The notes beneath the pieces are model-generated. The model was given only the letters and a program-made list of their open reading frames with translations, did not search any database and was not told the origin of the DNA. A program made the translations under genes and the position numbers. Of a stretch of 64,000 bases of DNA, positions 9,401 to 33,400 are shown piece after piece. Source of the DNA: Somniosus microcephalus (taxonomy: Eukaryota). Position 1 is the stretch's first letter; each line of letters begins with the position of its first letter. The stretch is taken from contig CM126205.1 in NCBI GenBank assembly GCA_052327205.1, forward strand, positions 241,676,001 to 241,740,000, given 5' to 3'.

Positions 9401-12400
9401 CTCACCTCATTGGCGTAGTGGCCACAGTACTACCCTGGGGCTAGAATGAGCTAGGAAAGCAGGAACTCCTGGCTCCACCCCCTGACAACATTTGTCTTAA
9501 GAGTCTGGAAAATCCCAGAAATGGCAGAGGCTTGGTGTATCTGGATTTACAATGGAACCCCAACAGATTTTTGGGGACAACTTTCTTTTGAGAAAAAAAA
9601 CACTCAATATTAATTTGATCTCAATTAAGCTTTTGAAATTTGCCCCTTTGTTATTCAAAATTATTTGAAGGAAAGCTACTAAAAGTTGAAAAGCTAAAGA
9701 GAAATATCACATCAATAGAGTTTAGTTAGATACACTCTATATGCTCAAACTGCATAATCCAAATTCTGCTCAGAGTCACAGGTCTATGCACAAATATCAA
9801 TTCTAAGCCCAGGTTTTTGGGAGAGGCTGAGGCATTCAAGTAAAATTATAATGAAGGCATTAAAAGATGTAAAAGACAATTCAGTGGCTAAATTCAATCA
9901 TGTTATTGTGAAATATCTAATTTTTAATTTTTTAAAAGTTTTTTAAACCCTAATTTTGGACATTAGAAATTTTAGTTGCTGAAGAAAGAAGTGACTGCTG
10001 AAAAAATTCAGAATACATTTTGAGAGAAGTGTGAGAATGCAGTGGCCAGATTAAATAATCATTGACTAGCTTATATAGGCAAAACCCATTACAAATGTAG
10101 ATATAAAAGAAAAAGTTGACACAAAAAGTGTGGGAAATACATGACAACTAGAAGTCAAGTGTTGCAGATAGGAAGTGTGCACACAGTTAAGTTTTTAATA
10201 TATATTACGGATAGATATATGTCTGTAAATAGGTGATAAGGCAGTTATACTGATCAAGCAGATAATGGCCCAGAAATTCAGGTCGAGGGCTTCCCGCAGG
10301 TGTAAGCCCCCGACCTGCACTTACCTTGCGCGCCGGCCGTTGAGCTGTGGGCCCCTGTGGAATTGCGATCCTGGGCCTCCTCCAACTGCCGGCGCGCAGT
10401 GCTTGCGTATCCCAGGGGCGCAGTTAGCTCGATGCGTCCCCTGGGGTCACGTGGGCCATGGGGAGCCAATCAGAGTAGGGAATGCTTCATTCATAAGTTT
10501 GACAGGAAGGGCTGTCAAACTTATAAATACTATAAGCCCCAAAACATCACTAAATCTTCAAATAAATTTTTAAAAATCAAATTTTTTAAATAAACTATAA
10601 ATTACATGAAATAACTATTTTAAACAATAATTTAAATTTTTGAAAAAAATAATTTTATTTTCTAACGAGGCTAAAAATAAACTTACCTTTCTTTAAAGTA
10701 TTTAAAAATAATAAACCTGTGGAAAAAATGTTTTAATTTTAATTAATTCACCACTTACCTTGTAAAAAGCAGTCCTTGCAACTGCTTTTTATATGTGTAA
10801 CTTCTGGAGACTTACCCTCCCGGGAAAACCTGCAAAAAAAAATGTAAGTTCGATGCGCACGCGCAGCCTCTCCTGCGCACGCGTTCAACCTCTGAACCCC
10901 TTCTTTCAGGGGAACAGAAGTGCCGGTTTCCAGGAAACCGGCACTTCCATTGGGCTTACGGGTGAGTACCCCGTGCGTACTCACCCGTGGAGACCCGAAT
11001 TTCTGGGCCAATGTGTGAAATGTAACCTCAATTTATTTTTGAAGATATTTTTGATGCAAGCATTTTTGGAGCTAGATTTTGCTCTATTTATGAAAAAAGA
11101 CACTCACATATTTGAATGAACATGAATTTCCTGATATTGTTCCAAGATGTCAATAGTGCATAGTATGATAGTTGTTAGTTATGTGATGAGTTGTCAAAGT
11201 GTAATTTTTCAGGGGACTTACAAAAGTGTTTAATTAAGTTGTATACAAATAAGGTCAATTAGAAATCAATAACAGATAATGTGTTTTCTCCATAATATAT
11301 TTGTGATGATTTAGAGGTCATACTAGTCATCACTAGTTTTTTTTTACCTTCAGTTGAGTGCACATAAAATCTTTTGGGTTTTTTCTCATTCAATTCGGTA
11401 CATTTTGGTTTTATAGAGCCTCCAAACTTCATTAAGAAGCCAGATCATACAATATTATTGAAAAAAGGAAGTTCAACATGTCTTGAGTGTACAGTAACTG
11501 GCACACCTGAGATCAAAATTACCTGGTACAAGAAAGAAAGTGAAGTTCAGCCAAGTGACAAATTCAGGATGTCGTTTGTTGATTCTATATCAGTCCTTGA
11601 ATTAATTGATGCCAGCGTGGAAGACAGTGGACATTACACTTGTAAAGCAGAGAATGAAGCTGGTTTTGACAATTGCAATGTTACAATTACAGTTAAAGGT
11701 GTGTAGCCAAAAAAATTAATAATGGAACCAATTTTGACAATTTGCTTTTTAAATGTTTTCCAGTTTGGTCAGTTTCTAAATTCTTTTGCTTTACTTGCTT
11801 TTTTTTTAGAACCTCCTTCTTTTAGAAAGAAACTCAAACCTGTTGAGGTAATAAAAGGCAGTGATATCACTCTTGAATGTGAAATGGACGGTACAGGCCC
11901 ATTTGATGTCACTTGGTATAAGGACAATAAGCAGATTCGATCTAGTATAAAATACAAGATGATCTCTGGAAAATCTTTAGTTAGTCTTTTTATTCAAAAA
12001 GTCGATAATTCAGATGCTGGTGAATACCAATGCGAAGTAACAAATGATGTGGGAAGTTGTTCTTGCATTGCTGGAGTCAGATTAAAAGGTCAGTTATCAA
12101 ATGCTGATCATTTTCTTCTTTGATATTTTCAATAATCCCATTTTGCAGTTCATTCTTACTTGGTTTTATTACTTTAGCATGAAGTGTCTGATCTTGTATC
12201 TAATTCACACAACTCTTAACTCTTAACTTTAAATCAGAACCCCCTTCCTTTGTGAAAAAGATTGAAAACATTACAACATTATCTGGAAATCCAGCCACTT
12301 TTGACAGTCAAATAGAAGGCTCAGCTCCCATATTTGTTACATGGATGAAGGACAAAGATGAAATCAGAGAAGATGACCATATTAAAATATCTTTTGAGAA

Positions 12401-15400
12401 CAGTATTGCTGTACTGCAAATTGCTTCTGTTGAAGCAAATCACAGCGGAAAGTACACATGTCAGGCCAGGAATGATGCAGGAACTGAGAAGTGTTTTGCC
12501 ACCTTGTTAGTAACAGGTTAGTATGAGACACTTGACATTTGTGAATTTCAGTAAAGTGTCAAGTATGCAAACAATATTTCTTACTTCATCGATTGAGGAA
12601 GTCTGGTTTTTCTTGCAGAACCTGCACAAATCATTGAGAAGCCAGAGCCATTAAGTATTACTTCAGGATCCACAGCAATTTTGGAATGTTTTGTTGCTGG
12701 TACTCCAGAACTGAAAGTTAGATGGTTCAAGAATGAAGCTGAATTGACATCCAGCAGGAAATATAAAATTACTTTTCTCAATAAGGTGGCAATCCTAAAG
12801 GTTCTATCTGTTGGCAAAGATGATAGTGGGGAATATGCTTTTGAAGTCCAGAATGAATTTGGACACAGCAGCTGCACAACTTCATTGACAGTACTAGGTT
12901 GGTGTTTTTTTAATGTGTCGAAACCTTTGATAGCACATCTCAAAAAAGAAGCTGAAAGGGAAGGGCCCCGTCTAATTTTAACATACTTAGAATGGGAAAA
13001 TTATTTTTTAAATGTTCGGAAATCATATTTGTGTTTTCATGTCATCCTATTGTCTTCTAAATGTGTGAAATTGGTTATAGACAACTTCTTAGTACCCTGT
13101 AACAACTTCAGTTCCTTCTTGGTTGTGTAATAATTGTCTTCATGCCTTGAGCAGCTAGTGGAATATTACAGGGCCTTTAAGAAAAACATGCCAAAATTTT
13201 ACGGGTGGATTTTAACTATTGAGTGGCCAGTTGGTGGAGTGGGTGGGCCTGCCACCCAATTCCCCAGGCAGGAGGCCCAGTCCATGGTCCATTTTAAGTG
13301 CCAGGCCTCATTATCATGCCACCAGCGTGCTGCATGCCCCAAACAGGGGTCGTTCTGCAGCTTGCTGGTTCAGAGATAGCGCAATATCGGGTGGCCCGGC
13401 TGACTCAACTGGCAGAAAGGTAGCTCCAGAGGAGTGGTTATAATTGCCGAGGTGGGGAACCCAGGATGGCAGCATCACACATTATTCTTGTGGAGCCCAG
13501 AGGAGCACCCCTGAGGCTCCTGGCCCTACAAAAATAATTTTTGCTCTTAGCTCTTTAGGCTTTATCTGCTGTACCGCCAGGTGTTCCGAAGCAGAGCATG
13601 CACACTACACCTCCTGCGTAGTAGCCCATAAAATTGCATCAGTGTCCTAAGTACATCATAAGACCACAATTTGCATAATAAGGCACTTGCTTGTTTCCGA
13701 TGTGCACATCAGCCGCCCTGCAGAAGGTCATGGGAAAAGTGGTAGTGGAGTAGGAACGGGGCGGGAAGTCCACCAACTTCATTTTAACTCCATTACCACC
13801 CTGTTTCCACTGGGCAGAGTGAGTTAAAATCTCTCCTTTGATATGTTAGCTGACAAGCTATCTTTGTTATTCTGTGTTGGACAGATCGAGTAATTGCTCC
13901 ATCCTTTACAAGAAGTTTAAAGAAAATGGATAACATATTGGGGACTTTGATGCACATGGAGTGCAAAGTATCTGGTTCTCTTCCAATCAGCATTTCTTGG
14001 TATAAAGATAACAAAGAGATAATGACTAATCACAAATACAAAATATCATTTGAAGAAAATACAGCATTTTTGGAGATTAAAGAACTTGAAATCACAGATG
14101 GTGGAAATTACTCTTGCAAAGCAACAAATGCTGCTGGAATTAGTGAATGCAGTGGATTCTTAACAGTAAAAGGTTTGAAGATCGCTTTACTCCAATCCAC
14201 TTCTATTTTAAGATGCATCAAATGCTGATTTTTCCAGTTGTAATATTTTCTGTTTCTTCTTTTCTGCAACAATAGAATATCTAGATAAATTGTACATATT
14301 TCCACTTCCTAAAATATTTTAACTTGTTGTGATCAGTAGTAAAATGCTATAGTAATGTAACTATTTTCAGAAGTTTTATTTTTACTTTATCTGACCTCAC
14401 TAAACAATATTTTCTTAAATGACTTTTAGAACCACCAAACTTTATAGAAAAACCAATGTCCCAAGAGATTGTACTTGGATCTACAGTACAGTTTAAGAGT
14501 GTTGTGAAAGGAACTCTTCCACTGTTTGTCAAGTGGTTCAAAGATAATAGGGAATTGAATCCTGGTGCAAGACGTTCCATTTGGAATGAAGAAACAACGC
14601 ACTTCTTTGAGCTAATGTCAACTAAAGTTTCTGATGCTGGCGTTTACAGCTGCCAACTCAGCAATGAAGCTGGTTCAGTTACTAGTACTGCAGAAGTATT
14701 CATCAAAGGTTTGCATTTCTTGTCAATCTTATTAGAAATTAAGTTTTGTGTAACTTTTTTAACAGTGTGATATTTCTTCCTTAGTTTTCTTCAAACCAAA
14801 GATCAGTAACTTTTATCTGAGGGTGACTTTTAGTCTCTTGTCTACTAATCTATTGTTCATGTTTCCTAACTTTACTTTGTAATTCCAGTATTCAGGTTTA
14901 TTGCATTTAATTTTCTCAGAACCTCCAAGTTTTGTTAAGAAGCCATCTCCTTCAGCAGCACTGAAACAGGGAGAATTTGCACGTTTTGAGTGCAAAATAA
15001 CTGGTACACCTGAAATCACAGTTACATGGTACAGAAATAACCATGATATTAGTACCAGTGACAAATGCAGGATATCGTTTCAAAACTCATTGGCTGTTCT
15101 TGAGATTGCTGATGTAAGTGTGGAAGATAGTGGGGATTATTCCTGTGAAGCACAGAATGGAGCTGGTAGTAATAGCTGCAACTTTGTCGTTCAGGTTAAA
15201 GGTGGGTAAAATAATATCTTAAAGACAGATTTTGCTTTTGGCATTTGATTGACCCCTAAGTCACATTGTTGTGTTTACTCTTTAGAACCTCCCACATTTA
15301 CAAAGAAACTTGAACCTGTTGAGGTAGTAAAAACCAGTGATTTCACTTTTGAATGTGAGGTGGCCGGTTCATCTCCCTTTGAAGTTATGTGGTATAAGGA

Positions 15401-18400
15401 CAAAAAACAAATTCGACGCAGCAAAAAATACAAAATGATCTCTGACATTTCTGTAGCCAGTCTTTGCGTTCTAAAGTCTGATAGCTCAGATGTTGGCGAA
15501 TACAAGTGTACAGTAAAAAATGAAGTGGGGAGTTGTTCTTGCAGTGCTACAGCCAGTTTGAAAGGTCAGTAGTAGTATGTTGCTAGACCATATTTTTCTT
15601 CTGCCGTTTATCATGCCACTTTAGTTAGCTTGTTATCCATTAGAGAATGCAGTGCTCAGCTATTTGTGGAAGCATTCTAATGTTTAAATTAAAAGAATTT
15701 TAAAACCATACTAAAAAACCATTTGTTTTAAACTAGAACCCCCAGGATTTATAAAGAAGATTGAAAATATAACAACATTGTCAGGGAATTCTGTTGTATT
15801 CCAATGTCAAGTAAGAGGCTCAAAGCCTATTTATGTAACTTGGATGAAAGATAAAGATGATATCCAAGAAGATGGTAATATTACATTGTCTTTTGAGAAT
15901 AATATTGCTACTCTTCAAATAAATGCTGTTGGAGAAAATCATGCTGGGAAATATACGTGCCAGGTCAAGAATGATGCTGGAACTGAGAAGTGTTTTGGCA
16001 CATTGTTGGTAGCAGGTCAGTAGGATATCGATTAGTTTAATAGTACCCTCCCCTCCAAAGTTTATGCTAATTAGTGAATTCAGATTCTTTGTCATACATC
16101 AACTAAAATGAGACTTATACCAGTAATATATTGAAGAGATTTTTTTTTCTTCGTAGAACCAGCAAAAATTACAGAACAAGCACAGTCACTCAGTGTGACG
16201 GCAGGAAATCCAGCAAACCTGGAATGTACTGTAACTGGTACACCAGAACTAAAAGTTAAATGTTTTAAGGATGGTAATGAAATGGTACCTAGCAGAAAAC
16301 ACAAAATCAACTTTGAGAATAATGTGTTCAGCCTAAAGATTCCTTCTGTTTCTAATGATGATACTGCTGAATATACTTTTGAGGTCAAGAATCAGTTTGG
16401 AACCAGCAACTGTAAAGCTTCATTGACAGTATTAGGTTAGTGTTTTATTTGCATTTAAAATTTGACTAATTTAAATATCTAGTGTCATTTGAAAATTTTG
16501 TTTGCCAATAAAGAAATCCTGATCACATTGACCAAAACCATATATAAAGGCTTTTATTGTTATAATGTTTTTTATGGAGACCAGTAACGATGGGAGTAGA
16601 CAGATCAGCTGTGTTGGGAGCTTTAAAATAAGTTTTGACTTGGATGGTCTCAGAAGGTATATCCTAATAAATATGAAAAATCTTATTGTAAACAATCACA
16701 GTGGATTTGATTCATTTAAAGCACTTCCAAATTTTTGCTGTTTGAGTTGATTGGCTGTGCTTTTGTCACTTTATCTTGGACAGATCAACTAATTCCCCCA
16801 TTGTTTACAAGAAAATTACGAAAAATGGACAGTGTTTTAGGATCTTTCATACATATGGAATGCAAAGTTTCTGGTTCTCTTCCAATGAGCTTTTCATGGT
16901 ATAAAGATTACAAAATAATAACAACTAGTGAAAAATACAAAGTGTTATGTCAAGATAACACACCAACTTTGGAAGTTAATCAACTAGAGATTTCAGATCA
17001 TGGAACTTATATTTGCAAAGCAACCAATTCGGTGGGAAGTGATGAATGCAGTGGTATCTTAAATATAACAGGTTTGAAAGATGAACTTGCTTTGTTTCAG
17101 CTCCTAATATAGCTTTTGCATATATAAACACTTGTTCAATTTCTGATTTTTGCTTGTTGCTCTAAAAAGATAAATATATTTAGTATTTAAAATTTATTAT
17201 GCAGTTTATAGTACGTTCTCATTTTAGCTCTGCTTTGCCATTTTATTTTTGTTGACATCTTACCCAATGTAAACTAAGTACTATAGGGAGCCAATTCTAT
17301 TATTTTTTTTCACCTGACTTTTAGAGCCACCAAGTTTTATAGAAAAACCTGTAGCCCAGGAAAGTCTACCTGGTTCCACAGTGCAGTTTAGAAGTGTTGT
17401 GAAAGGAACTGCTCCACTATCTATAAAATGGCTGAAGGATGGCAGGGAACTGATGTCTGGAGCTGATTGCTTCATTTTAAATGAAGGTTCAACAAGTTTA
17501 CTCGAGTTGTTTTCAGCTAAAGTTTCTGATTTGGGTGACTATACTTGTGAAGTCAGCAACAAGGTTGGAAGCGCCACTTGTACAACAAGACTATTTATCA
17601 AAGGTGTGGAATTTAGGTTCACTTGTTAAACCATTGTGAAACACTGTTAAAAATTCTGACGTCTTCATTTTGAAAAGTTTACATGTCTGTAAAGTTATTT
17701 TTCTTTGGTTTGTTATACACTTTTCTCTCGTTTGTTATTTTTTATGTTGCTATCGTGCTGTGTGTTATCTTCCTTTATTCCTTTATATGTGGCATGTGTT
17801 GCATTGTTCCTTTTTATGTTGTATGGGTTTGTTTCAGACTTTTACATTTATAATTAAGTTTACTACATTTTTTTCTCTAGAACCTCCTTATTTTATTAAG
17901 AAGTTAGATCTTACAGCAGTATTTAAAAAAGGAGAGACAGCAAGTTTTGAGTGCAAAGTAACTGGCACACCTGAAATCAAAATCACTTGGTTCAACAACT
18001 ATCGTGAAATTAGAGCCAGTGAAAAATACAGAATGTCATTTGCTGATTCAGTGGCAATATTTGAGATTGCTGATATAAGCCTGGATGACAGTGGGAATTA
18101 TTCCTGTAAAGCACAAAATGAAGCTGGCAGTGAATCTTGTGACATTAAAGTTACAGTTAAAGGTGTGTAAAAAGTCCTAGTTATATTTTGCAACAGAAGT
18201 TAACTGGTCTTTTTGAAAATGTTGCAAGTGCCTTGTGTTTAATTATGGAATATTTGGGAGCCTATTTTAAGTTTAACATCACTTTAACAGCCTGTTTTTA
18301 TAGCTAGTTTTTCATTGGCCAATAAAAATTATCATTCAATTGCCCCAAGCTCCTTAATTCAAACTGAAGAATGAAATGTAATGTAAGCATGTTAATAGAA

Positions 18401-21400
18401 AATTTAAAATTTGACTCCAAAGGACCGATTTTAATTACCAGTGGGAAGCTGGCAGATGCAGACCGTGCAGGCGTCTTCATCAGAGGCCCCGGCAGATTTT
18501 AACTGCTAGGCCTTATTTGAATGCCAGCGTTCAGCTGCTCACCCGTTTAGAGTAGAAAGTGGCAGCTGGCTGGTGGGGGGGAGGTGAATATATCTGCCCT
18601 GTAGCACCAGGAAATGGCAGAAAGTGGCAACAAGGTAAGTCTGGGAGTGGGACTTTCCAAGGGTCTCACTGCTGCTTAGGAGAGAAGCCCAGGGCATTGA
18701 GGCCCAGACATTCTTTGTAGGGCCAGGAGCTCTCATGCTCCTCCTGGTCCCATTGTAGAAAGATGTTTAATTTGTCTCGAAGACCTCGCTATCTTCCCGA
18801 CAACTTTACCTGGCGTGCAGCCGTGGCAGGCATCCTGCTCAGAAGGACATTAAAGTGCCTTTTCCGTCCCATGTGCATCATTGGACCCCAATTTTCATTT
18901 ATTGGTGAGGTTCCTGCTGTTGTCCAATGGACATCTCAATCGCCGACAAAAACAAGTTGTGTTAAAATGGGGAATAGGCGGGAACAGAGTGAGAATTGGA
19001 GATGCTCCATTTTAACTGCTCCCTCTCTTTCCTGCTGGTTGGGAGATTTAAAGTTCCCCGTTTAATCCTTTTTAAATGCTAAGAGTCATGTGCAACTAGG
19101 TAAAGTTATTAATGTTCAGGGCTGATAATGCCTTGAAAATTGTAGATATATATAAAAAAGAATGAAGGGTATTTATTCGAGTATTTTACTAATCTGCATT
19201 AAATAATAGCTGCAGGAGAAAACATCTGTGTGTTTGTTTGTTTTCCATGATTTGCAATCACACCTTAAAATAAGAATCACGCAAATATTTTTTCACGTCA
19301 ATGGTTATTGTTAGGAGTCACTGTGCAAAACCTGAATTTAGTGGCCTGTGATTTGTAAACCATGTTAATGTGTTTAATCTTTAGAACCTCCCACATTTAC
19401 GAAGAAGCTTGAACCAGTTGAGGTAGTAAAAACCAGTGATTTCACTCTTGAATGTGAAGTGGCCGGTTCAGGTCCCTTTGAAGTTATGTGGTACAAGGAC
19501 AATAAACAAATTCGACGCAGTAAAAAATACAAAATGATCTCTGACATTTCTTTAGCCAGTCTTTGCGTTCTAAAGTCTGATAGCTCAGATGTTGGCGAAT
19601 ACAAGTGTTCAGTAAAAAATGATGTGGGGAGTTGTTCCTGCAGTTCTACAGTCAGTTTGAAAGGTCAGTTACAATCCAGTTCTAGTAAGTGGTTTCACCT
19701 GGATGTTGTGTGGTATCTGTTTCGTTATCATGCTCTTATTAGGTATTATTGAATGTCTTGAAGCATAATATTTTTAATAATTGAACGTTGGTTGTATAAT
19801 TTTAAATTATAACAGGGTATATTCTCTACTTTAAACTAGAACGACCAACCTTCGTACAAACAATAGAAAATGCAACAGTATTTTCTGGAAATTCTGCTGT
19901 ATTTCAATGTCATGTAAGAGGCTCAGTTCCTATAGCTACAAGCTGGAAAAAAGATGGCAAACATGTCAAAGAAGACGATAATGTAAAAATGTCCTTTGAA
20001 AACAATATTGCCACATTACAGATTATTAAGGCTGAAGAAAATCACAGTGGAAATTACATATGTCAGGCAAAGAATGATGCGGGAACTGCAAAATGCTTTG
20101 CTACATTGGCCGTAATGGGTTAGTAGGAAGTAATGAGCACAAGTATTGTCCACAAATTATTGATCTATGTCTCATAATATTTACTTTTCCACAGTAAAAT
20201 TATTTTAATGTTTTTAAATTAATTCTGTGATCATCAAGGTGAGGAATGTTATAATTGGCAGTGGGAACCTTTTCCATGTTGAGCAAACATTGTCAGGCAC
20301 TCAGTGCACCACAGTTAAATGCAGGATATAGCTCCCTGTACTCTACTCCAAAAATATGCCTCTGGCAAATCCTCAGAAGAATATTTCCTCTGTATCATTT
20401 TTTTCCATTTCCCTCACTATCTATTTTGTGAGGTCCCTGAATTAGATTGTTAACTTAATGCCCAGTTAGGGACAGTTTAGTGCCATTGGGAGCTGGATTG
20501 AGACTGCCCAAACTTATTTCACACACAACACTTACAGCAAGCATGCAGAAGAGACTTTTATTGCAGCAGTCTTGACTGGATTTGTACCCAAGTCCATGAT
20601 GTATAAACCTATTGTGTAGTCTGTTTCCGCCCAAATCTATTATCTTAAAATAGCAATCCGAGCATAAATATTGCATCGTTCTCCTGATGTAAATGATCTA
20701 ATTTTTCCCACAGAACCTGCGAATATCATAGAAAAAACTGAGCCACTCACAGTGACTTCAGGAAACCCAGCCATTTTGGAATGTACTGTAGCTGGTACAC
20801 CAGAATTAAAAGTTGCATGGTTCAAAAGTGGAAAGCAACTGGAATCAAGTAGAAAATATAAGATGAGTTTTGTGAATAAAGTGGCCAGTCTAAAAATTTT
20901 GGCTGTTGGAATGGATGACAGTGGTGACTATACTTTTAAGGTCCAGAATGAGTTTGGAGCCAACAGCTGCAATGTTTCTTTAACAGTGTTAGGTCAGTGA
21001 TTAATTTGTGTTGATGGCATCGATTTCATAGAGCATTTCTTTTAAAACCAAAGCTTATCACAAAGTTTAAAATAATTGACACTTTTTTATTGATGTTTTA
21101 TGATTTTTTTTTCCTTTATATTGGACAGAACAAATAATTGCTCCATTGTTTACAAGAAAACTAAAGGAAATGGGCAGTATTTTAGGATCTGTTGTACGAA
21201 TGGAATGCAAAGTTTCTGGTTCTATTCCAATGACCGTTACTTGGTATAAAGCAGACAGTGAAATATCAGCTAGTAACAAATACAAGATGTCATTTCAAGA
21301 CAACATGCTGTCTTTAGAGGTCACTGAGTTAGACTTTTCAGATGGTGGAATTTACACTTGCAAAGCAGCAAATTCAGCAGGAAAGGATGAATGCAGTGCT

Positions 21401-24400
21401 GTCTTAAGTATAAAAGGTTTGAGACATTGCTTTGCTACATTTCTTTCTCATCAGTACTTATTTTCTTAGTTTATATTTTTTGTTTGCTACGATAGTGAAG
21501 TAACTAAATAAACCTATCGACCATCTCTATCTTCTTTTTGTTAAGAGTTCTTAGATTTTTTGAAGGATATGTTAGCATGTGTTAATCATAAAGTTGTCTT
21601 TAATCTAATCATGTCTTCTAGTTTGTACATACATCTGAGTTAATTAAATGCTTTTTTCTTATGTGAATTTTAGAGCCCCCAAGCTTTACAGACAAAGTAA
21701 TGTCCCAGGATGTTGTACTTGGTTCTACAGTGCAGTTTAAGAGTGTTGTGAAAGGAAGCACACCACTCTCTACAAAATGGTTCAAAGGGGACAGGGAATT
21801 GATGCGTGGTGTGGCATATTCTATTTGGAATGAAGGCTCAACATATTTTCTCGAGCTGTTTTCAGCTAAAATATCTGATGCGGGTGCTTACACCTGCCAA
21901 GTTAGCAACGATGTTGGCACAGATACCTGTTCTGCAGAATTGTTTGTTAAAGGTGTGCATTTCTGGATTTTTGCTGCAGATCTCTTTTATATAAAACTGT
22001 TTCCCTGCTTTGCTATCTTAAAAGTTTAGAAACATCAACTTGTTTTCTTGCTGGTTGGTTAGCTCTAGTGGTAGAACTTTACACTGCCAACCATGGAGAG
22101 GGGCCAATGGTGGTCATCAGGCATTCAAATCTGGGCTGACAGTCAGACGCAATGTTCTTTATTCGGAAACTCTACAGTTTTGCCATGAACTGCTAGGTGG
22201 AGCATCATGTAATGGTGGGGAATTCTCTGTCAGTTCAAGGAAAACTGGCAAACCCAACAGTCCTCACTGAAATTGATTTGCATCATCTAATCATAAAATG
22301 GCTGTGATGGCAACTTTGAGGACTTTCACAGTCTGGAATGCCCTACCGCCAATATTGAGGGAAGAACCATTTTGGTGGAGGCAGCAACCTGATGCCATAT
22401 GAAAAAGGAAATGCTGTTTGCTTTACCGTACACAGAGCTCAGTTTGAGTATTAAACTATTGTTTTTTAACTTGTAAATTTGGTGTGTAAATGTTTCATAG
22501 CCAATTATTTATATCTAAATATTAGTTTGAACTGCTTTTGATTATCGTTTAAACTTATATTGAAATTTATAATATTTTGGCTTCTAGAACCTCCTAGCTT
22601 CATTAAAAAGCTACATTCTTCAACAATACTAAAGAAAGGAGACTCAGCACGTTTTAAGTGCATTGTAACTGGCACACCTGAAATTAAAGTTACTTGGTAC
22701 AAAAACGGTCATGAAATTATAGCCAGTGACAGATGTATCATGTCATTTGATGGTTCTTTGGCAATTCTTGAGATGATTGATGTTATTCTGGATGACAGTA
22801 CATGCTACACCTGTGAGGCACGGAATGAAGCTGGCAGTGACAGCTGCAGCACTGAAGTTGAAGTTAAAGGTCTGTAGTAATGTCTTCTTTAATTGGTAGC
22901 AATATATATATGTTAGTTTCTTGAGCAGGGATACTATTAGTTTCTGTATTGTGGTTGATTTGGATTTCTTTATTCTGATTACTTTATAGAACCTCCCAGT
23001 TTTAGAAGGAAACTTCAATCTGCTGAAATAGTTACAACCAGTGATTTCACCCTTGAATGTGAGGTGGATGGTACAGGGCCCTTTGAAGTTATGTGGTATA
23101 AGGACAATAAACAAATTCGACGCAGCAAAAAATACAAAATGATCTCTGACATTTCTTTAGCCAGTCTTTGCGTTCTAAAGTCTGATAGCTCAGATTTTGG
23201 CGAATATAAGTGTTCAGTAAAAAATGAAGTGGGGAGTTGTTCATGCAGTTCTACAGTCAGTTTGAAAGGTCAGTTGTAGCATGTTGTCAGATATATGTTC
23301 CTTCCGGTGTTTATAGTGCCATTTGAGTTATCTTGTTATCCATTAGAAAATTCAAGGCTAATCTATTTGTGGAAGCATTCTACATTTTACATGAAAACAT
23401 TTTTAGAACCATAATGAAAAACAACAAAATATATTGACATATTCATATTACCATTTGTTTTAAACTAGAACCCCCAGGATTTATAAAGAAGATTGAAAAT
23501 ATAACAACATTGTCAGGGAATTCTATTGTATTCCAATGTCAAGTAAGAGGCTCAAAGCCTATTTATGTAACTTGGATGAAAGATAAAGATGATATCGAAG
23601 AAGATGGTAATATTACATTGTCTTTTGAGAATAATATTGCTACTCTTCAAATAAATGCTGTTGGAGAAAATCATGCTGGGAAATATACGTGCCAGGTCAA
23701 GAATGATGCTGGAACTGAGAAGTGTTTTGGCACATTGTTGGTAGCAGGTCAGTAGGATATTGATTAGTTTAATAGTACCCTCCCCTCCAAAGTTTATGCT
23801 AATTAAAAGTGAATTCAGATTCTTTGTCATACATCAACTAAAATGAGACTTATACCAGTAATATATTGAAGAGATTTTTTTTTCCTCGTAGAACCAGCAA
23901 AAATCACAGAACAAGCACAGTCACTCAGTGTGACGGCAGGAAATCCAGCAAACCTGGAATGTACTGTAACTGGTACACCAGAACTAAAAGTTAAATGTTT
24001 TAAGGATGGTAATGAAATGGTACCTAGCAGAAAACACAAAATCAACTTTGAGAATAATGTGTTCAGCCTAAAGATTCCTTCTGTTTCTAATGATGATACT
24101 GCTGAATATACTTTTGAGGTCAAGAATCAGTTTGGAACCAGCAGCTGTAAAGCTTCATTGACAGTATTAGGTTAGTGTTTTATTTGCATTTAAAATTTGA
24201 CTAATTTAAATATCTAGTGTCATTTGAAAATTTTGTTTGCCAATAAAGAAATCCTGATCACATTGACCAAAACCATATATAAAGGCTTTTATTGTTATAA
24301 TGTTTTTTATGGAGACCAGTAACGATGGGAGTAGACAGATCAGCTGTGTTGGGAGTTTTAAAATAAGTTTTGATTTGGATGGTCTCAGAAGGTATATCCT

Positions 24401-27400
24401 AATAAATATGAAAAATCTTATTGTAAACAATCACAGTGGATTTGATTCATTTAAAGCACTTCCAAATTTTTGCTGTTTGAGTTGATTGGCTGTGCTTTTG
24501 TCACTTTATCTTGGACAGATCAACTAATTCCCCCATTGTTTACAAGAAAATTACGAAAAATGGACAGTGTTTTAGGATCTTTCATACATATGGAATGCAA
24601 AGTTTCTGGTTCTCTTCCAATGAGCTTTTCATGGTATAAAGATTACAAAATAATAACAACTAGTGAAAAATACAAAGTGTTATGTCAAGATAACACACCA
24701 ACTTTGGAAGTTAATCAACTAGAGATTTCAGATCATGGAACTTATATTTGCAAAGCAACCAATTCGGTGGGAAGTGATGAATGCAGTGGTATCTTAAATA
24801 TAACAGGTTTGAAAGATGAACTTGCTTTGTTTCAGCTCCTAATATAGCTTTTGCATATATAAACACTTGTTCAATTTCTGATTTTTGCTTGTTGCTCTAA
24901 AAAGATAAATATATTTAGTATTTAAAATTTATTATGCAGTTTATAGTACGTTCTCATTTTAGCTCTGCTTTGCCATTTTATTTTTGTTGACATCTTACCC
25001 AATGTAAACTAAGTACTATAGGGAGCCAATTCTATTATTTTTTTTCACCTGACTTTTAGAGCCACCAAGTTTTATAGAAAAACCTGTAGCCCAGGAAAGT
25101 CTACCTGGTTCCACAGTGCAGTTTAGAAGTGTTGTGAAAGGAACTGCTCCACTATCTATAAAATGGCTGAAGGATGGCAGGGAACTGATGTCTGGAGCTG
25201 ATTGCTTCATTTTAAATGAAGGTTCAACAAGTTTACTCGAGTTGTTTTCAGCTAAAGTTTCTGATTTGGGTGACTATACTTGTGAAGTCAGCAACAAGGT
25301 TGGAAGCGCCACTTGTACAACAAGACTATTTATCAAAGGTGTGGAATTTAGGTTCACTTGTTAAACCATTGTGAAACACTGTTAAAAATTCTGACGTCTT
25401 CATTTTGAAAAGTTTACATGTCTGTAAAGTTATTTTTCTTTGGTTTGTTATACACTTTTCTCTCGTTTGTTATTTTTTATGTTGCTATCGTGCTGTGTGT
25501 TATCTTCCTTTATTCCTTTATATGTGGCATGTGTTGCATTGTTCCTTTTTATGTTGTATGGGTTTGTTTCAGACTTTTACATTTATAATTAAGTTTACTA
25601 CATTTTTTTCTCTAGAACCTCCTTATTTTATTAAGAAGTTAGATCTTACAGCAGTATTTAAAAAAGGAGAGACAGCAAGTTTTGAGTGCAAAGTAACTGG
25701 CACACCTGAAATCAAAATCACTTGGTTCAACAACTATCGTGAAATTAGAGCCAGTGAAAAATACAGAATGTCATTTGCTGATTCAGTGGCAATATTTGAG
25801 ATTGCTGATATAAGCCTGGATGACAGTGGGAATTATTCCTGTAAAGCACAAAATGAAGCTGGCAGTGAATCTTGTGACATTAAAGTTACAGTTAAAGGTG
25901 TGTAAAAAGTCCTAGTTATATTTTGCAACAGAAGTTAACTGGTCTTTTTGAAAATGTTGCAAGTGCCTTGTGTTTAATTATGGAATATTTGGGAGCCTAT
26001 TTTAAGTTTAACATCACTTTAACAGCCTGTTTTTATAGCTAGTTTTTCATTGGCCAATAAAAATTATCATTCAATTGCCCCAAGCTCCTTAATTCAAACT
26101 GAAGAATGAAATGTAATGTAAGCATGTTAATAGAAAATTTAAAATTTGACTCCAAAGGACCGATTTTAATTACCAGTGGGAAGCTGGCAGATGCAGACCG
26201 TGCAGGCGTCTTCATCAGAGGCCCCGGCAGATTTTAACTGCTAGGCCTTATTTGAATGCCAGCGTTCAGCTGCTCACCCGTTTAGAGTAGAAAGTGGCAG
26301 CTGGCTGGTGGGGGGAGGTGAATATATCTGCCCTGTAGCACCAGGAAATGGCAGAAAGTGGCAACAAGGTAAGTCTGGGAGTGGGACTTTCCAAGGGTCT
26401 CACTGCTGCTTAGGAGAGAAGCCCAGGGCATTGAGGCCCAGACATTCTTTGTAGGGCCAGGAGCTCTCATGCTCCTCCTGGTCCCATTGTAGAAAGATGT
26501 TTAATTTGTCTCGAAGACCTCGCTATCTTCCCGACAACTTTACCTGGCGTGCAGCCGTGGCAGGCATCCTGCTCAGAAGGACATTAAAGTGCCTTTTCCG
26601 TCCCATGTGCATCATTGGACCCCAATTTTCATTTATTGGTGAGGTTCCTGCTGTTGTCCAATGGACATCTCAATCGCCGACAAAAACAAGTTGTGTTAAA
26701 ATGGGGAATAGGCGGGAACAGAGTGAGAATTGGAGATGCTCCATTTTAACTGCTCCCTCTCTTCTTTCCTGCTGGTTGGGAGATTTAAAGTTCCCCGTTT
26801 AATCCTTTTTAAATGCTAAGAGTCATGTGCAACTAGGTAAAGTTATTAATGTTCAGGGCTGATAATGCCTTGAAAATTGTAGATATATATAAAAAAGAAT
26901 GAAGGGTATTTATTCGAGTATTTTACTAATCTGCATTAAATAATAGCTGCAGGAGAAAACATCTGTGTGTTTGTTTGTTTTCCATGATTTGCAATCACAC
27001 CTTAAAATAAGAATCACGCAAATATTTTTTCACGTCAATGGTTATTGTTAGGAGTCACTGTGCAAAACCTGAATTTAGTGGCCTGTGATTTGTAAACCAT
27101 GTTAATGTGTTTAATCTTTAGAACCTCCCACATTTACGAAGAAGCTTGAACCAGTTGAGGTAGTAAAAACCAGTGATTTCACTCTTGAATGTGAGGTGGC
27201 CGGTTCAGGTCCCTTTGAAGTTATGTGGTATAAGGACAATAAACAAATTCGACACAGTAAAAAATACAAAATGATCTCTGACATTTCTTTATCAAGTCTT
27301 TGCGTTCTAAAGTCTGATAGCTCAGATGTTGGCGAATACAAGTGTTCAGTAAAAAATGATGTGGGGAGTTGTTCCTGCAGTTCTACAGTCAGTTTGAAAG

Positions 27401-30400
27401 GTCAGTTACAATCCAGTTCTAGTAAGTGGTTTCACCTGGATGTTGTGTGGTATCTGTTTCGTTATCATGTTCTTATTAGGTATTATTGAATGTCTTGAAG
27501 CATAATATTTTTAATAATTGAACGTTGGTTGTATAATTTTAAATTATAACAGGGTATATTCTCTTTACTTTAAACTAGAACGACCAACCTTCGTACAAAC
27601 AATAGAAAATGCAACAGTATTTTCTGGAAATTCTGCTGTATTTCAATGTCATGTAAGAGGCTCAGTTCCTATAGCTACAAGCTGGAAAAAAGATGGCAAA
27701 CATGTCAAAGAAGACGATAATGTAAAAATGTCCTTTGAAAACAATATTGCCACATTACAGATTATTAAGGCTGAAGAAAATCACAGTGGAAATTACATAT
27801 GTCAGGCAAAGAATGATGCGGGAACTGCAAAATGCTTTGCTACATTGGCCGTAATGGGTTAGTAGGAAGTAATGAGCACAAGTATTGTCCACAAATTATT
27901 GATCTATGTCTCATAATATTTACTTTTCCACAGTAAAATTATTTTAATGTTTTTAAATTAATTCTGTGATCATCAAGGTGAGGAATGTTATAATTGGCAG
28001 TGGGAACCTTTTCCATGTTGAGCAAACATTGTCAGGCACTCAGTGCACCACAGTTAAATGCAGGATATAGCTCCCTGTACTCTACTCCAAAAATATGCCT
28101 CTGGCAAATCCTCAGAAGAATATTTCCTCTGTATCATTTTTTTCCATTTCCCTCACTATCTATTTTGTGAGGTCCCTGAATTAGATTGTTAACTTAATGC
28201 CCAGTTAGGGACAGTTTAGTGCCATTGGGAGCTGGATTGAGACTGCCCAAACTTATTTCACACAGAACACTTACAGCAAGCATGCAGAAGAGACTTTTAT
28301 TGCAGCAGTCTTGACTGGATTTGTACCCAAGTCCATGATGTATAAACCTATTGTGTAGTCTGTTTCCCCCCAAATCTATTATCTTAAAATAGCAATCCGA
28401 GCATAAATATTGCATCGTTCTCCTGATGTAAATGATCTAATTTTTCCCACAGAACCTGCGAATATCATAGAAAAAACTGAGCCACTCACAGTGACTTCAG
28501 GAAACCCAGCCATTTTGGAATGTACTGTAGCTGGTACACCAGAATTAAAAGTTGCATGGTTCAAAAGTGGAAAGCAACTGGAATCAAGTAGAAAATATAA
28601 GATGAGTTTTGTGAATAAAGTGGCCAGTCTAAAAATTTTGGCTGTTGGAATGGATGACAGTGGTGACTATACTTTTAAGGTCCAGAATGAGTTTGGAGCC
28701 AACAGCTGCAATGTTTCTTTGACAGTGTTAGGTCAGTGATTAATTTGTGTTGATGGCATCGATTTCATAGAGCATTTCTTTTAAAACCAAAGCTTATCAC
28801 AAAGTTTAAAATAATTGACACTTTTTTATTGATGTTTTGTGATATTTTTCCTTTATATTGGACAGAACAAATAATTGCTCCATTGTTTACAAGAAAACTA
28901 AAGGAAATGGGCAGTATTTTAGGATCTGTTGTACGAATGGAATGCAAAGTTTCTGGTTCTATTCCAATGACCGTTACTTGGTATAAAGCAGACAGTGAAA
29001 TATCAGCTAGTAACAAATACAAGATGTCATTTCAAGACAACATGCTGTCTTTAGAGGTCACTGAGTTAGACTTTTCAGATGGTGGAATTTACACTTGCAA
29101 AGCAGCAAATTCAGCAGGAAAGGATGAATGCAGTGCTGTCTTAAGTATAAAAGGTTTGAGACATTGCTTTGCTACATTTCTTTCTCATCAGTACTTATTT
29201 TCTTAGTTTATATTTTTTGTTTGCTACGATAGTGAAGTAACTAAATAAACCTATCGACCATCTCTATCTTCTTTTTGTTAAGAGTTCTTAAAAAGTTGAA
29301 GGATATGTTAACATGTGTTAATCATAAAGTTGTCTTTAATCTGATCATGTCTTCTAGTTTGTACATACATCTGAGTTAATTAAATGCTTTTTTCTTGTGC
29401 GAATTTTAGAGCCCCCAAGCTTTACAGACAAAGTAATGTCCCAGGATGTTGTACTTGGTTCTACAGTGCAGTTTAAGAGTGTTGTGAAAGGAAGCACACC
29501 ACTCTCTACAAAATGGTTCAAAGGGGACAGGGAATTGATGCGTGGTGTGGCATATTCTATTTGGAATGAAGGCTCAACATATTTTCTCGAGCTGTTTTCA
29601 GCTAAAATATCTGATGCGGGTGCTTACACCTGCCAAGTCAGCAACGATGTTGGCACAGATGCCTGTTCTGCAGAATTGTTTGTTAAAGGTGTGCATTTCT
29701 GGAGTTTTGCTGCAGTTCTCTTTTATATAAAACTGTTTTCCCTGCTTTGCTATCTTAAAAGTTTAGAAACATCAACTTGTTTTCTTGAAGGTTGGTCAGC
29801 TCTAGTGGTAGAACTTTACACTGCCAACCATGGAAAGGGGCCAATGGTGGACATCAGGCATTCAAATCTGGGCTGACAGTCAGACTCAATCGCCGAAATT
29901 TTAATTTGAGGCGGGGAGGGAGCAGAGGGGCTGGAAAGCGGTCTGGAAACCCGAATTTAATGACATGGCCTGATTAGCATTTAGAATCCCTGTTTTGCGC
30001 CTGCAGCCAGCCAGATGGAGAGGCTGGCTGGCTGTCAGGCGGGTAGACCTGCGGCACCAGGCTGCAGAGAGGAGCGCTGGGATGTGGGGGAGTCGGTAGC
30101 CAGTGTGTGATCGGGGACCCGAGGGGGGAGGTTTGAAGGCCGAAGGATGAGCAGGGGCCGGAGGCGGGAAGTTGGCAGGTGATTGAAGGCCAGGGGATGA
30201 ATTGGAGGCTTGGGGCTGGGTGGGGGGTGCGGTTGGAGGCCGGAGGGGGTCCAAGGCCTATCCAAGGATCGAAAGCCAGAGAGGGAATTGAAGTTCGGAG
30301 GGGAGGTTGGGGTGAGATCGGAAGGGCCGGGGTATGTCCGATCACGGGCCATTGGCGAAGCAGGAAAGCTGGATCCAGTGAGTAAGTGAAAAGGCACTTA

Positions 30401-33400
30401 ACTCCTGGATCCAGCAGTCCTCGCCCTCCTTCAGCTGGCTGGTTCCCCGAGGCCCGGGAATCCTGCCCGCCCACTGTTAAATTGAAAATGGAGCTACAAA
30501 ATGAGGCACGCAGCCTCATTATAATTTTAAAGTGCAAACCCATCTCATGCAAGCGGGTTGACCGCTCGCCTCCATTAAATCCGGAAGTGGGCGGGTTAGG
30601 GTTGGGATTCAGATTTTTAACTCTTCAACCTCCCACTTGACCCCAACCCACCCATTTTTTGGGGTTAAAATTACCCTCCAAGTTCTTTATTAGGAAGCTC
30701 TACAGTTTTGCCATTAACTGCTAGGTGGAGCAGCATGTAATGGTGTGGAATTCTCTCAGTTCAAGGAAGAACTGGCAAACCCAAGAGTCCACACTGAAAT
30801 TGATTTGTATCATCTAATCATTAAAATGACAGTGATGGCAATTTTGAGGAATTTCACAGCCTGGAATGCCCCACCCCCAATATTGAAGGAAGAACCATTT
30901 TGGTGGAGGCAGCAATGAGAAAACCTGATAGCATATGAAAAAAGAAATGCTGTTTGCTTTACCATACACAGAGTATTTGAGTATTAAACTTTGATTTTCT
31001 TAAAGTTGTAAATTTGGTCTGTAAATGTTATATAACCAATTATTTATATCTAATGATTTGAATTGATTTTGATTATGCTTTAAATTAAATGTAGTCATAT
31101 TTTGGCTTCTAGAACCTCCTAGCTTCATTAAAAAGCTACATTCTTCAACAATACTAAAGAAAGGAGACTCAGCACGTTTTGAGTGCATTGTAACTGGCAC
31201 ACCTGAAATTAAAGTTACTTGGTACAAAAACGGTCATAAAATTATAGCCAGTGACAGATGTATCATGTCATTTGATGGTTCTGTGGCAATTCTTGAGATG
31301 ATTGATGTTATTCTGGATGACATTACATGCTACATCTGTGAGGCACGGAATGAAGCTGGCAGTGACAGCTGCAGCACTGAAGTTGAAGTTAAAGGTCTGT
31401 AGTAATGTCTTCTTTAGTCGGTTACAATATATATATGTTAGTTTCTTGAGCAGGGATACTATTAGTTTCTGTATTGTGGTTGATTTGGATTTCTTTATTC
31501 TGATTACTTTATAGAACCTCCCAGTTTTAGAAGGAAACTTCAATCTGTGGAAGTAGTAAGAAGCAGTGGTGTCACTCTTGAATGTGAGGTGGCCGGTACA
31601 GGGCCCTTTGACGTAATGTGGTATAAGGACAATAAACAAATTCCGTCTAGTGAAAAATACAAGATGATCTCTAAGAACTTTTTAATTAGTCTTCATATTT
31701 TGAAGTTGGATATTTCAGTTGTGGGTGACTATAAATGCACAGTAACAAATGATGTGGGAAGCTGCTCCTGCAGTTGTGTTGTCAGTTTAAAAGGTTAGTT
31801 ACATTGCGATAGGAAAGTACTTTTACTTGTAATATTGACATAAACAATATGTATTGCTACTTTATTATAATCAGGAAAGAGGACATAGCACAGTTTTAGC
31901 AGCTAACATTGTTGTAACATTGTAATGTTGAAATTTTTTAGGGAATAGGCCCATAAACAGTATTTATTGCTATTTTATTATAATCATGAAAGCGGACAGA
32001 GCAAATCACTCATATTTATTTCCGTGCCTGTTTATCTTGAACTAGAACCCCCATCATTTATAAGGAAGATTGAAAATGTTACAACATTTGTTGGAAATCC
32101 TGCTGCGTTTCCATGCCTTGTAAAAGGCTCACAACCTTTATCTATAAGTTGGATGAAAGGTAACGATGATATCAAAGAAGATGATAATATAGCAATTTCT
32201 TTTGAAAACAATATTGCTATCCTGCAAATTACAGCCGTTGAAGCAAAACATGGTGGGAAATACATTTGTCAAGCCAAAAATGATGCAGGGATTGAGAAAT
32301 GTTTTGCTGCGTTGATAGTAACAGGTTGGTAGGAAACATTTAGAAATATGATTGGCTAAAATGTAAAAGTTCTAATTTATTTATCATACTAATGGGCAAA
32401 AGAAGACCACATTAACATATTGACAACATTACTCAGCACAGTATTTTTTCTTAACAGAATCTGCAAAAATTGTTGAGGGAGCAAAGTCACACAGTGTAAC
32501 TGTAGGAAATCCAGCAATTTTGGAATGTACTGTAGCTGGTACACCAGACCTAAAAGTTAAATGGTTTAAAGATGGAAAGGAGCTCACATCTACCAGAAAG
32601 TGCAAATTGAGTTTTGAGAAAAACATGGCCAGTTTAAAGATTCTGTCGGTAGAGATGTCGAGTAGTGGTGAATATACTTTTGAGGTCCAGAATGAATTTG
32701 GAGTCGACAGCTGCAAAGCTTCCTTGGCAGTATTAGGTTAGTATTTTAAATGTATTGAGAGATTTGGATGTGAATAGGAATGCGGTTAAGTTGGTATTTT
32801 AGGCTACTTTTACATCTTAAGCTTACAGGTTGTGCTCTATATTGTACAGATCGATTAATTGCTCCAACATTTACGAAAAAGTTAAAGAATATGGGCACTA
32901 CATTGGGGTCTTTCATGACCATGGAGTGCAAAGTATCTGGTTCTCTTCCAATGAACATTCATTGGCATAAAGATGGGAAGGAGATATCAGATAGTAGCAA
33001 ATATAAACTATCACAGCGAGATAACACTTCATCTTTGGAGATTAATCAACTAGAAATCGCAGATGGTGGACTTTATACTTGCAGAGTATCAAATGTAGCA
33101 GGAAGTGATGAATGCAGTAACACACTTACTGTGAAAGGTTTGAAATATTGCCTTTGTGTTTTCTACTCAATTTCTTAACATGATAGATGTAATTCGGATC
33201 ATATTTTAACCTCAGCAGAATTTCTTGAAAGTTTGAAATAATTACTCTGAATTTATTGAAGAGTTATATCGTTTATAACGCAAAAGTTGATGAATCTTTA
33301 TACGTGCTCTTTATTGCAACAAATATACTTTTTCTTCAATGAATTTTAGAACCACCAAGATTTATAGTAAAGCCAGTGTCACAGGAGGTCCCCCCCTGTT

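What the first reader, a model, noticed from the sequence alone, without database searches (positions are those of the whole stretch)
15320..31550. Tandem duplication of a 12-Ig-exon block (~7.7 kb) inside titin
Seen: exons and introns from R3 pos2 to R5 pos2 recur at +7735. All duplicated exons remain open with intact splice sites, adding 12 Ig domains (about 1,120 aa) to the I-band spring. The copies differ by scattered SNPs, small indels and one MITE. Established: human TTN has a near-identical triplicated block in PEVK; I know of no such young duplication in the middle Ig region. Inference: recent or ongoing titin length evolution, possibly copy-number variable.
Basis: seen in the sequence. 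Interest (0 to 1): 0.75.

Follow-up and report, generated by a model that had tools for sequence, protein, structure and literature searches.

The report
Ancient titin duplication kept looking young
A shark's titin gene carries a real tandem repeat of 12 spring-domain exons whose copies are 99.6% identical in the middle, but the same repeat shows up in other sharks and, strongly diverged, in a ray, so it is likely an ancient duplication kept alike by gene conversion and not a recent one.

Summary
The duplication is real: 12 Ig exons (1,124 aa) of titin's middle-Ig segment recur in tandem, and all 25 exons involved are open with AG/GT ends. It is not young. The 6.2-kb core differs at 0.4% of sites, the edge introns at 12%. 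Contigs from three other species break at the same boundaries and lay on the core at about twice flank depth, while differing from the window by 2.2-5.7%. Heptranchias has two near-identical models of this block that share 10 species-specific residues; the ray Mobula hypostoma has two copies 19% apart. Best reading: unequal crossover between two position-2 exons made a chimeric in-frame exon, and gene conversion has homogenised the copies since, in sharks but no longer in devil rays. It probably accounts for the published six (elephant shark) versus eight (whale shark) 6-Ig super-repeats. One origin before the shark-ray split (about 306 Ma) is likely but unproven. Inclusion in mRNA and copy-number variation were not shown.

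The parts
15286..15564 (+). R3 position-2 Ig exon; left parent of the junction. 94% identical to the non-equivalent R4 position-2 exon although flanking introns are unrelated
15565..15736 (+). Left diverged edge intron, 18.1% different from 23269-23468
   Evidence: single-depth contigs in runs X4, X12, X15
15737..21952 (+). Core of copy 1: ten Ig exons (R3 p3-p6, R4 p1-p6) with introns
   Evidence: 25 substitutions and 7 indels in 6208 aligned sites against copy 2
16640..19457 (+). Stretch with no substitution against copy 2, including a 1.2-kb repeat-bearing intron
   Evidence: 0/2817, 2 indels
21953..22587 (+). Right diverged edge intron of copy 1 (4.0% before and 9.6% after the insertion point)
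   Evidence: X12 contig 22089-22606 lies on it
22588..22869 (+). Junction-side copy of the R5 position-1 exon; 5 substitutions against 31113-31394, all amino-acid changing
22990..23268 (+). Chimeric junction exon: first 31 nt identical to R5 p2, nt 94 onward like R3/R4 p2, private changes between
23269..23468 (+). Junction copy of the left edge intron, with a 29-nt indel next to the core boundary
23469..29688 (+). Core of copy 2: ten Ig exons with introns
   Evidence: contigs of three other species at about double depth
29891..30681 (.). 791-bp high-copy repeat insertion present only in copy 2
31113..31550 (+). R5 p1 exon, intron and start of R5 p2: second homogenised island (about 98% like 22588-23025) and right parent of the junction
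   Evidence: X4 contig 31097-31530 at depth 27.9 against flanks of 15-18

Best explanation
This is a likely ancient in-frame tandem duplication of 12 Ig exons in shark titin, whose two copies are likely kept near-identical by recurrent gene conversion (concerted evolution). Shown: the duplication, the chimeric junction exon, the identical core with diverged edges, and two copies in other sharks and in a ray. Inferred steps: (1) unequal crossover between the paralogous R5 and R3 position-2 exons (both 279 nt, phase 1) made the junction exon and added two 6-Ig super-repeats without a frameshift; (2) conversion tracts, from exon-sized to several kb, have since overwritten exons and introns alike in each shark lineage; (3) large heterologies (the 791-bp repeat, a 29-nt indel, the ends of the unit) limit the tracts, so divergence builds up beside them; (4) in devil rays exchange stopped long ago and the copies drifted 19% apart; (5) the block would lengthen the skeletal-muscle I-band spring by 12 domains and be spliced out in heart, as reported for this segment in elephant shark.
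For: Core introns 13/3397 (0.38%) vs edge introns 71/589 (12.1%), Fisher p 3e-47; introns being identical excludes protein-level selection alone. Runs of organisms C, D, F: core contig depth over flank depth 1.97, 1.72, 2.40; core divergence from the window 65/3005, 154/4755, 257/4519 (2.2, 3.2, 5.7%) against 0.55-0.60% between the window's copies over the same spans. Contig ends in all three fall near the window's own boundaries (about 15540, 15750-15761/23453-23463, 29855-29890). Heptranchias XP_067843000.1 and XP_067843002.1: 6/184 residues apart, 10 columns group copies by species, 0 by copy. R3 p2 vs R4 p2 exons 94% identical at offset 4099 where other R3/R4 exon pairs are 69-77%: exchange at a non-unit offset, bounded near the exon ends. 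Elephant-shark primers i47 and i60 map to R2 p6 and to the two R5 p1-type exons, and Callorhinchus XP_007888385.1 runs R4 p6 to R5 p6, so the block is about e49-e60, single in a six-repeat gene; whale shark has eight (PMC12241362).
Against: No listed contig spans the junction exon in the relatives, and the tool warns that depth is not copy number. In X12 flank depths range 4.7-11.5 and core depths 9.6-17.5, so they overlap. One X15 piece in the core (18231-18441, depth 5.98, only 210 of 882 nt fitting) and X4 rows at 18836-18866 (depth 16.8) are at single depth, so relatives' copies are not collapsed everywhere. The two Mobula copies group together (93/93; 24 species-grouping columns, 0 copy-grouping), which fits a separate early-ray duplication as well. 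The ray junction exon is in no model seen. Only one copy was found for Mustelus. The RNA run gave exon depth under 2 and no listed splice joints. All 5 changes between the two R5 p1-type exons alter residues, which gives no sign of constraint on the junction-side exon.
Confidence: 0.82

Rival explanations
1. Same old duplication, but homogenised mainly by cycles of unequal crossover (2 to 3 to 2 copies), which would leave segregating copy-number variation.
For: A long identical core with fixed diverged ends is what such cycles give. Organism F core/flank depth 2.4 could hide a three-copy haplotype. Human TTN's repeated block is copy-number variable (PMC9142044, passages).
Against: A second homogenised island (22570-23025 vs 31095-31550) is cut off from the core by a diverged intron, and position-2 exons are alike at offset 4099 with unrelated introns; crossover at the unit offset cannot make these. 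Both processes may act together.
Confidence: 0.2
2. The block is a duplication hotspot: sharks and rays (or several shark lineages) duplicated the same 12 exons independently, and the shark event is younger than the shark-ray split.
For: Mobula copies form their own group; ray breakpoint only bracketed between R5 p1 and R3 p6; near-identical position-2 exons are ready substrates.
Against: Needs the same 12-domain unit to arise twice; the ray copies are as far apart as shark from ray (72 vs 64-72 of 372); whale shark's eight repeats equal six plus this block (PMC12241362). Within sharks C, D, F the shared contig boundaries point to one event.
Confidence: 0.3
3. A young, species-specific duplication.
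For: 99.6% identity over 6.2 kb.
Against: 12% edge divergence, copy-specific repeat insertion, private changes in the junction exon; two copies in three other species, Heptranchias and Mobula.
Confidence: 0.03
4. Assembly artefact (two haplotypes joined in tandem).
For: Near-identical core; no long reads were available to lay.
Against: The junction exon and its two flanking introns differ 10-18% from both parents and cannot exist on an unduplicated haplotype; relatives show doubled, not halved, core depth; X12 has a 521-nt contig on the junction-side intron.
Confidence: 0.01

Closest known systems
6-Ig super-repeat expansion of the middle-Ig segment in cartilaginous fish (Hanashima et al. 2025, PMC12241362)
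   Same: Same segment, same six-domain period, followed by one 10-Ig repeat, two Ig and N2A; elephant shark six and whale shark eight repeats, a difference of 12 domains.
   Different: The paper speaks of six-domain blocks and a possible transposon; its text has no mention of conversion, concerted evolution or a 12-Ig unit. I could not see its Fig. 4 tree, which may already pair the whale-shark domains.
Human TTN PEVK triplication (exons 172-198) and NEB triplicate region (PMC9142044; PMC12241362)
   Same: Near-identical multi-exon tandem block inside a giant sarcomere gene.
   Different: The TTN block is disordered PEVK, dated to about 1 and 3 million years, and copy-number variable; this one is folded Ig, old, with diverged edges; copy-number variation untested.
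Long-lived concerted evolution of BMP8A/B, DDX19A/B, TUBG1/2 (Carson and Scherer 2009, PMC2720389, abstract)
   Same: Two copies, intron-inclusive homogenisation of segments, paralogues closer than orthologues, over 100 million years.
   Different: Those are gene pairs in mammals; here the pair is a block of exons inside one gene and one polypeptide, possibly for about 300 million years.
Rule that neighbouring titin Ig domains diverge to avoid stable misfolding (Borgia et al. 2015, PMC4660218, passages)
   Same: Neighbours here are 22-47% identical, 0 of 41 pairs at 70% or more.
   Different: Identical domains sit 12 apart and 85-91% identical ones 6 apart (3 of 36 pairs), which the rule as tested on adjacent pairs does not cover.

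Membership tests
Titin middle-Ig segment | One I-set Ig domain per phase-1 exon in a six-domain period, then a 10-Ig repeat, two Ig and N2A | tested here: met
   best PDB match titin 3b43, E 2.6e-104; best named relatives are shark and ray titin-like models
Tandem intragenic duplication | Head-to-tail copies with a unique junction | tested here: met
Recent segmental duplication | Uniformly low divergence along the whole unit | tested here: not met
   0.38% core vs 12.1% edge introns
Recent segmental duplication | Absent from related species | tested here: not met
Concerted evolution | Paralogues within a species closer than orthologues between species that share the duplication | tested here: met
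   0.55-0.60% vs 2.2-5.7%; Heptranchias 10 species-grouping vs 0 copy-grouping columns
Concerted evolution | Homogenisation includes non-coding DNA | tested here: met
   13/3397 intron sites
Concerted evolution | Duplication shown to be one event before the species split (orthologous junction) | tested here: inconclusive
   Shared contig boundaries in organisms C, D, F, but no listed junction-spanning contig; ray junction not seen
Gene conversion (vs unequal crossover) | Patchy tracts that do not change copy number | tested here: inconclusive
   Patchiness and off-unit exon exchange shown; non-reciprocity needs population data
Copy-number-variable block (as human TTN SD) | Copy number differs among individuals | not testable with these tools
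   One run per relative, contigs only
MITE (the 791-bp insertion) | Terminal inverted repeats and target-site duplication, high copy number | tested here: inconclusive
   High copy; only 8-bp inverted match, no clear duplication

The most novel reading that the evidence does not exclude
One 12-Ig duplication in the ancestor of sharks and rays, over 300 million years ago, has been kept at about 99.5% identity, introns included, by gene conversion in several shark lineages, while it froze and diverged in devil rays. That would be among the longest-lived intragenic concerted evolution in vertebrates, with a built-in control lineage, and would put exact domain twins 12 positions apart in one titin chain.
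Probability: 0.55. Interest if true: 0.72.

Novelty: new variant of a known kind. Interest (0 to 1): 0.6.

Why it matters
It names the probable event behind the six-to-eight step in cartilaginous-fish titin super-repeats and shows that sequence identity badly misdates it. Sharks that still homogenise and rays that stopped give a natural comparison for what sustains or ends concerted evolution, and for how far apart identical Ig domains must be to be tolerated in one chain. Practically, short-read contigs collapse this block and public annotation breaks it into stray models named 'peroxidasin homolog' or 'CAVP-target protein-like', so titin lengths in shark genomes may be miscounted.

Tried and rejected
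No whole genome is held for this window, so upstream repeats could not be counted. The HMMER search of 50% representatives returned mostly long Ig-rich proteins at 24-38% identity and no full-length shark titin among the 150 listed. Protein searches were limited to 162-2000 residues, so only fragmentary models were seen. No RNA holder was listed; one of two same-label RNA runs was laid (X21, about 24% read): 359 reads, 49 at 99% or better, exon depth under 2, no listed splice joint, so inclusion of the junction exons is open. Four of 24 runs were laid; the runs with the highest share (X1-X3) were not. In one search I used 18 of the 23 listed pieces and left out X15 records 10 and 11, X4 records 21 and 22 and the second piece of X4 record 17 (repeat, position-2 exon, right island or paralogous match); 15,615 shorter pieces were not shown. 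GC-biased conversion: core introns and third positions are no richer in GC than flanking repeats, no signal. cDNA-mediated conversion of position-2 exons was considered; likeness runs about 16 nt into the upstream intron, which favours DNA-level exchange. Hidden Ig exons in the 7.3-kb intron 4125-11416: none by tblastn. PMC10620051 gave no shark-ray date. Literature searches with no report of this block; subscription journals are mostly missing from the library.
Full report
Observation. A self-comparison finds two long matches, 14913-22153 to 22582-29890 (96.1%) and 22154-23275 to 30682-31800 (87.9%), far above the 64-78% background between Ig exons. Exon parsing gives seven six-exon repeats in the window (R1, R2, R3, R4, a junction repeat, R4', R5), then a ten-exon repeat, two more Ig exons and N2A-type exons (the N2A label is from recalled motif knowledge and the order given in PMC12241362). 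The best solved-structure match of the junction exon is titin 3b43. All 25 exons between 15286 and 31793 are open and have AG..GT ends; the gain is 12 exons, 1,124 residues. Per-domain identity is 75-97% to Heptranchias models (89-97% outside the position-2 exon), 72-93% to Mobula, 76-90% to Mustelus and 71-78% to Callorhinchus, so the window is from a shark (inference).

The divergence profile is not that of a young copy. The core 15737-21952 vs 23469-29688 has 25 substitutions in 6208 sites, none in 2817 consecutive sites. Core introns differ at 13/3397 sites, the two edge introns at 71/589 (p 3e-47; corrected distances 0.004 vs 0.13). Beyond the right diverged intron lies a second island of about 98% identity (R5 p1 exon, intron, first 31 nt of the next exon). 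The junction exon 22990-23268 starts as R5 p2 (0 differences in nt 1-31), has private changes in nt 32-93 and continues as R3/R4 p2. Divergence is highest next to a 29-nt indel and a 791-bp high-copy insertion.

Relatives. Logan contigs of three other coded organisms were laid on 14400-32800. From the listed pieces, core depth over flank depth is 1.97 (X4), 1.72 (X12) and 2.40 (X15), and the core contigs differ from the window at 2.2%, 3.2% and 5.7% of sites, against 0.55-0.60% between the window's own copies on the same spans (18 of 23 listed pieces used, the rest named under Tried and rejected). Contigs start or stop where the window's copies begin to differ: near 15540 and 15750-15761 on the left intron, 23453-23463 at the core start, 29855-29890 at the core end, and 22089-22606 (X12), 30693-31182 (X15), 31097-31530 (X4) on the right. 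The simplest reading is that each species has both copies, alike enough to collapse, with the same edges. Limits: depth is a rough proxy, X12 is noisy, some core pieces are at single depth, and no listed contig spans the junction exon.

Named proteins reach further. Heptranchias perlo has two models, XP_067843000.1 and XP_067843002.1, that both hold R3 p3-p4; they differ at 6 of 184 residues, and 10 columns unite them against both window copies, none by copy. Mobula hypostoma has consecutive models XP_062908156.1 and XP_062908157.1 that both hold R4 p4-p6 and R5 p1; they differ at 72 of 372 residues, the window's copies at 6, and ray versus window at 64-72. An M. birostris model has an R4 p1 domain 27 of 93 residues away from the M. 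hypostoma one while the preceding half-domain differs at 4 of 50, suggesting two R4 p1 paralogues in devil rays (two species, so weaker). The tree puts window copies together (100/99) and ray copies together (93/93), so it cannot separate one old event with early conversion from two events. Only one copy was seen for Mustelus.

A second level of exchange. The R3 p2 and R4 p2 exons are 94% identical at offset 4099, where the other five R3/R4 pairs are 69-77%, and their introns are unrelated beyond about 16 nt upstream and 6 nt downstream. Over the last 59 residues the window's R3 p2 is 6 from its own R4 p2, 11-13 from R4 p2 of Mustelus and Mobula and 15 from the exon before R3 p3 in Heptranchias, which suggests R4-type sequence overwrote R3 p2 and the junction exon in this lineage (inference).

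Mechanism. Unequal crossover between two phase-1 position-2 exons explains an in-frame chimeric exon and a gain of exactly two super-repeats (inferred from the junction). Intron-inclusive identity with patchy borders and off-unit exon exchange points to gene conversion, with unequal-crossover cycles as a possible partner (inferred). No adaptive reason for homogenisation is needed or shown; core exons carry both silent and replacement differences. Neighbouring domains stay at 22-47% identity (0 of 41 pairs at 70% or more), while 3 of 36 pairs six apart and 14 of 30 pairs twelve apart reach 70%, in line with the view that it is adjacent identity that is penalised (PMC4660218, passages). In elephant shark most of this segment is spliced out in heart and mostly kept in skeletal muscle (PMC12241362); the same is assumed here, since the RNA run was too shallow.

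What is known. PMC12241362 (read: parts 1-3 of 5 of the text, its one supplement, term search; figures not held) reports six 6-Ig repeats in elephant shark and eight in whale shark. Its i47 and i60 primers match R2 p6 and the two R5 p1-type exons of the window, and a Callorhinchus model runs R4 p6 to R5 p6, so R3-R4 is e48-59 and this duplication would turn six into eight (inference; the window begins at R1, so the first repeat is not seen). The text has no 'conversion', 'concerted' or '12-Ig'. Human TTN has a young, copy-number-variable PEVK block (PMC9142044, passages; PMC12241362). Concerted evolution lasting over 100 million years was found for three human gene pairs (PMC2720389, abstract). 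Dates of 421 Ma for chimaeras vs elasmobranchs and 306 Ma for sharks vs rays are from PMC3692497 (abstract). Searches and passages of PMC12198301 showed no report of this block. The scan's own notes hold nothing on this sequence; one search listed only prokaryotic look-alikes.

Verdict. Real feature, wrong age. A new variant of known kinds (titin super-repeat expansion; concerted evolution), of interest because of its probable depth in time and the shark-ray contrast. Interest 0.6; 0.72 if a single origin over 300 million years ago is confirmed.

Noticed in passing
window 15286-15564, 19385-19663, 22990-23268, 27122-27400: Four position-2 exons in a row of super-repeats are 90-98% identical in DNA, six domains apart; they could seed 6-Ig gains or losses. 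Five of the 12 core exon substitutions fall in the R4/R4' p2 pair.
   Followed up: partly
window 16157-16435 and 23892-24170: The usually invariant core tryptophan of this Ig domain is cysteine in both copies, and also in Heptranchias and Mobula models; possibly a mechanically weaker domain.
   Followed up: no
window 22588-22869 vs 31113-31394: All 5 substitutions between these exons change residues; by comparison with ray, Mustelus and chimaera, about three are new in the junction-side copy.
   Followed up: partly
P0006, P0007: NCBI models named 'peroxidasin homolog' (Mobula birostris) and 'CAVP-target protein-like' (Heptranchias perlo) are fragments of titin's middle-Ig segment.
   Followed up: yes
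window 6193-7192: Long degenerate inverted repeat (arms about 280 nt, 71-81% complementary) in the 7.3-kb intron between R1 and R2; likely an old transposon.
   Followed up: no
window 39400-40080: Very GC-rich 680-bp element in an intron after the first post-repeat Ig exon, with similar ends in inverted orientation by eye; likely a non-autonomous transposon.
   Followed up: no
window 18231-18441 (run X15): In organism F a contig fits only 210 of 882 nt here at single depth, suggesting an insertion in one copy of the core intron, a place where homogenisation may be breaking.
   Followed up: no
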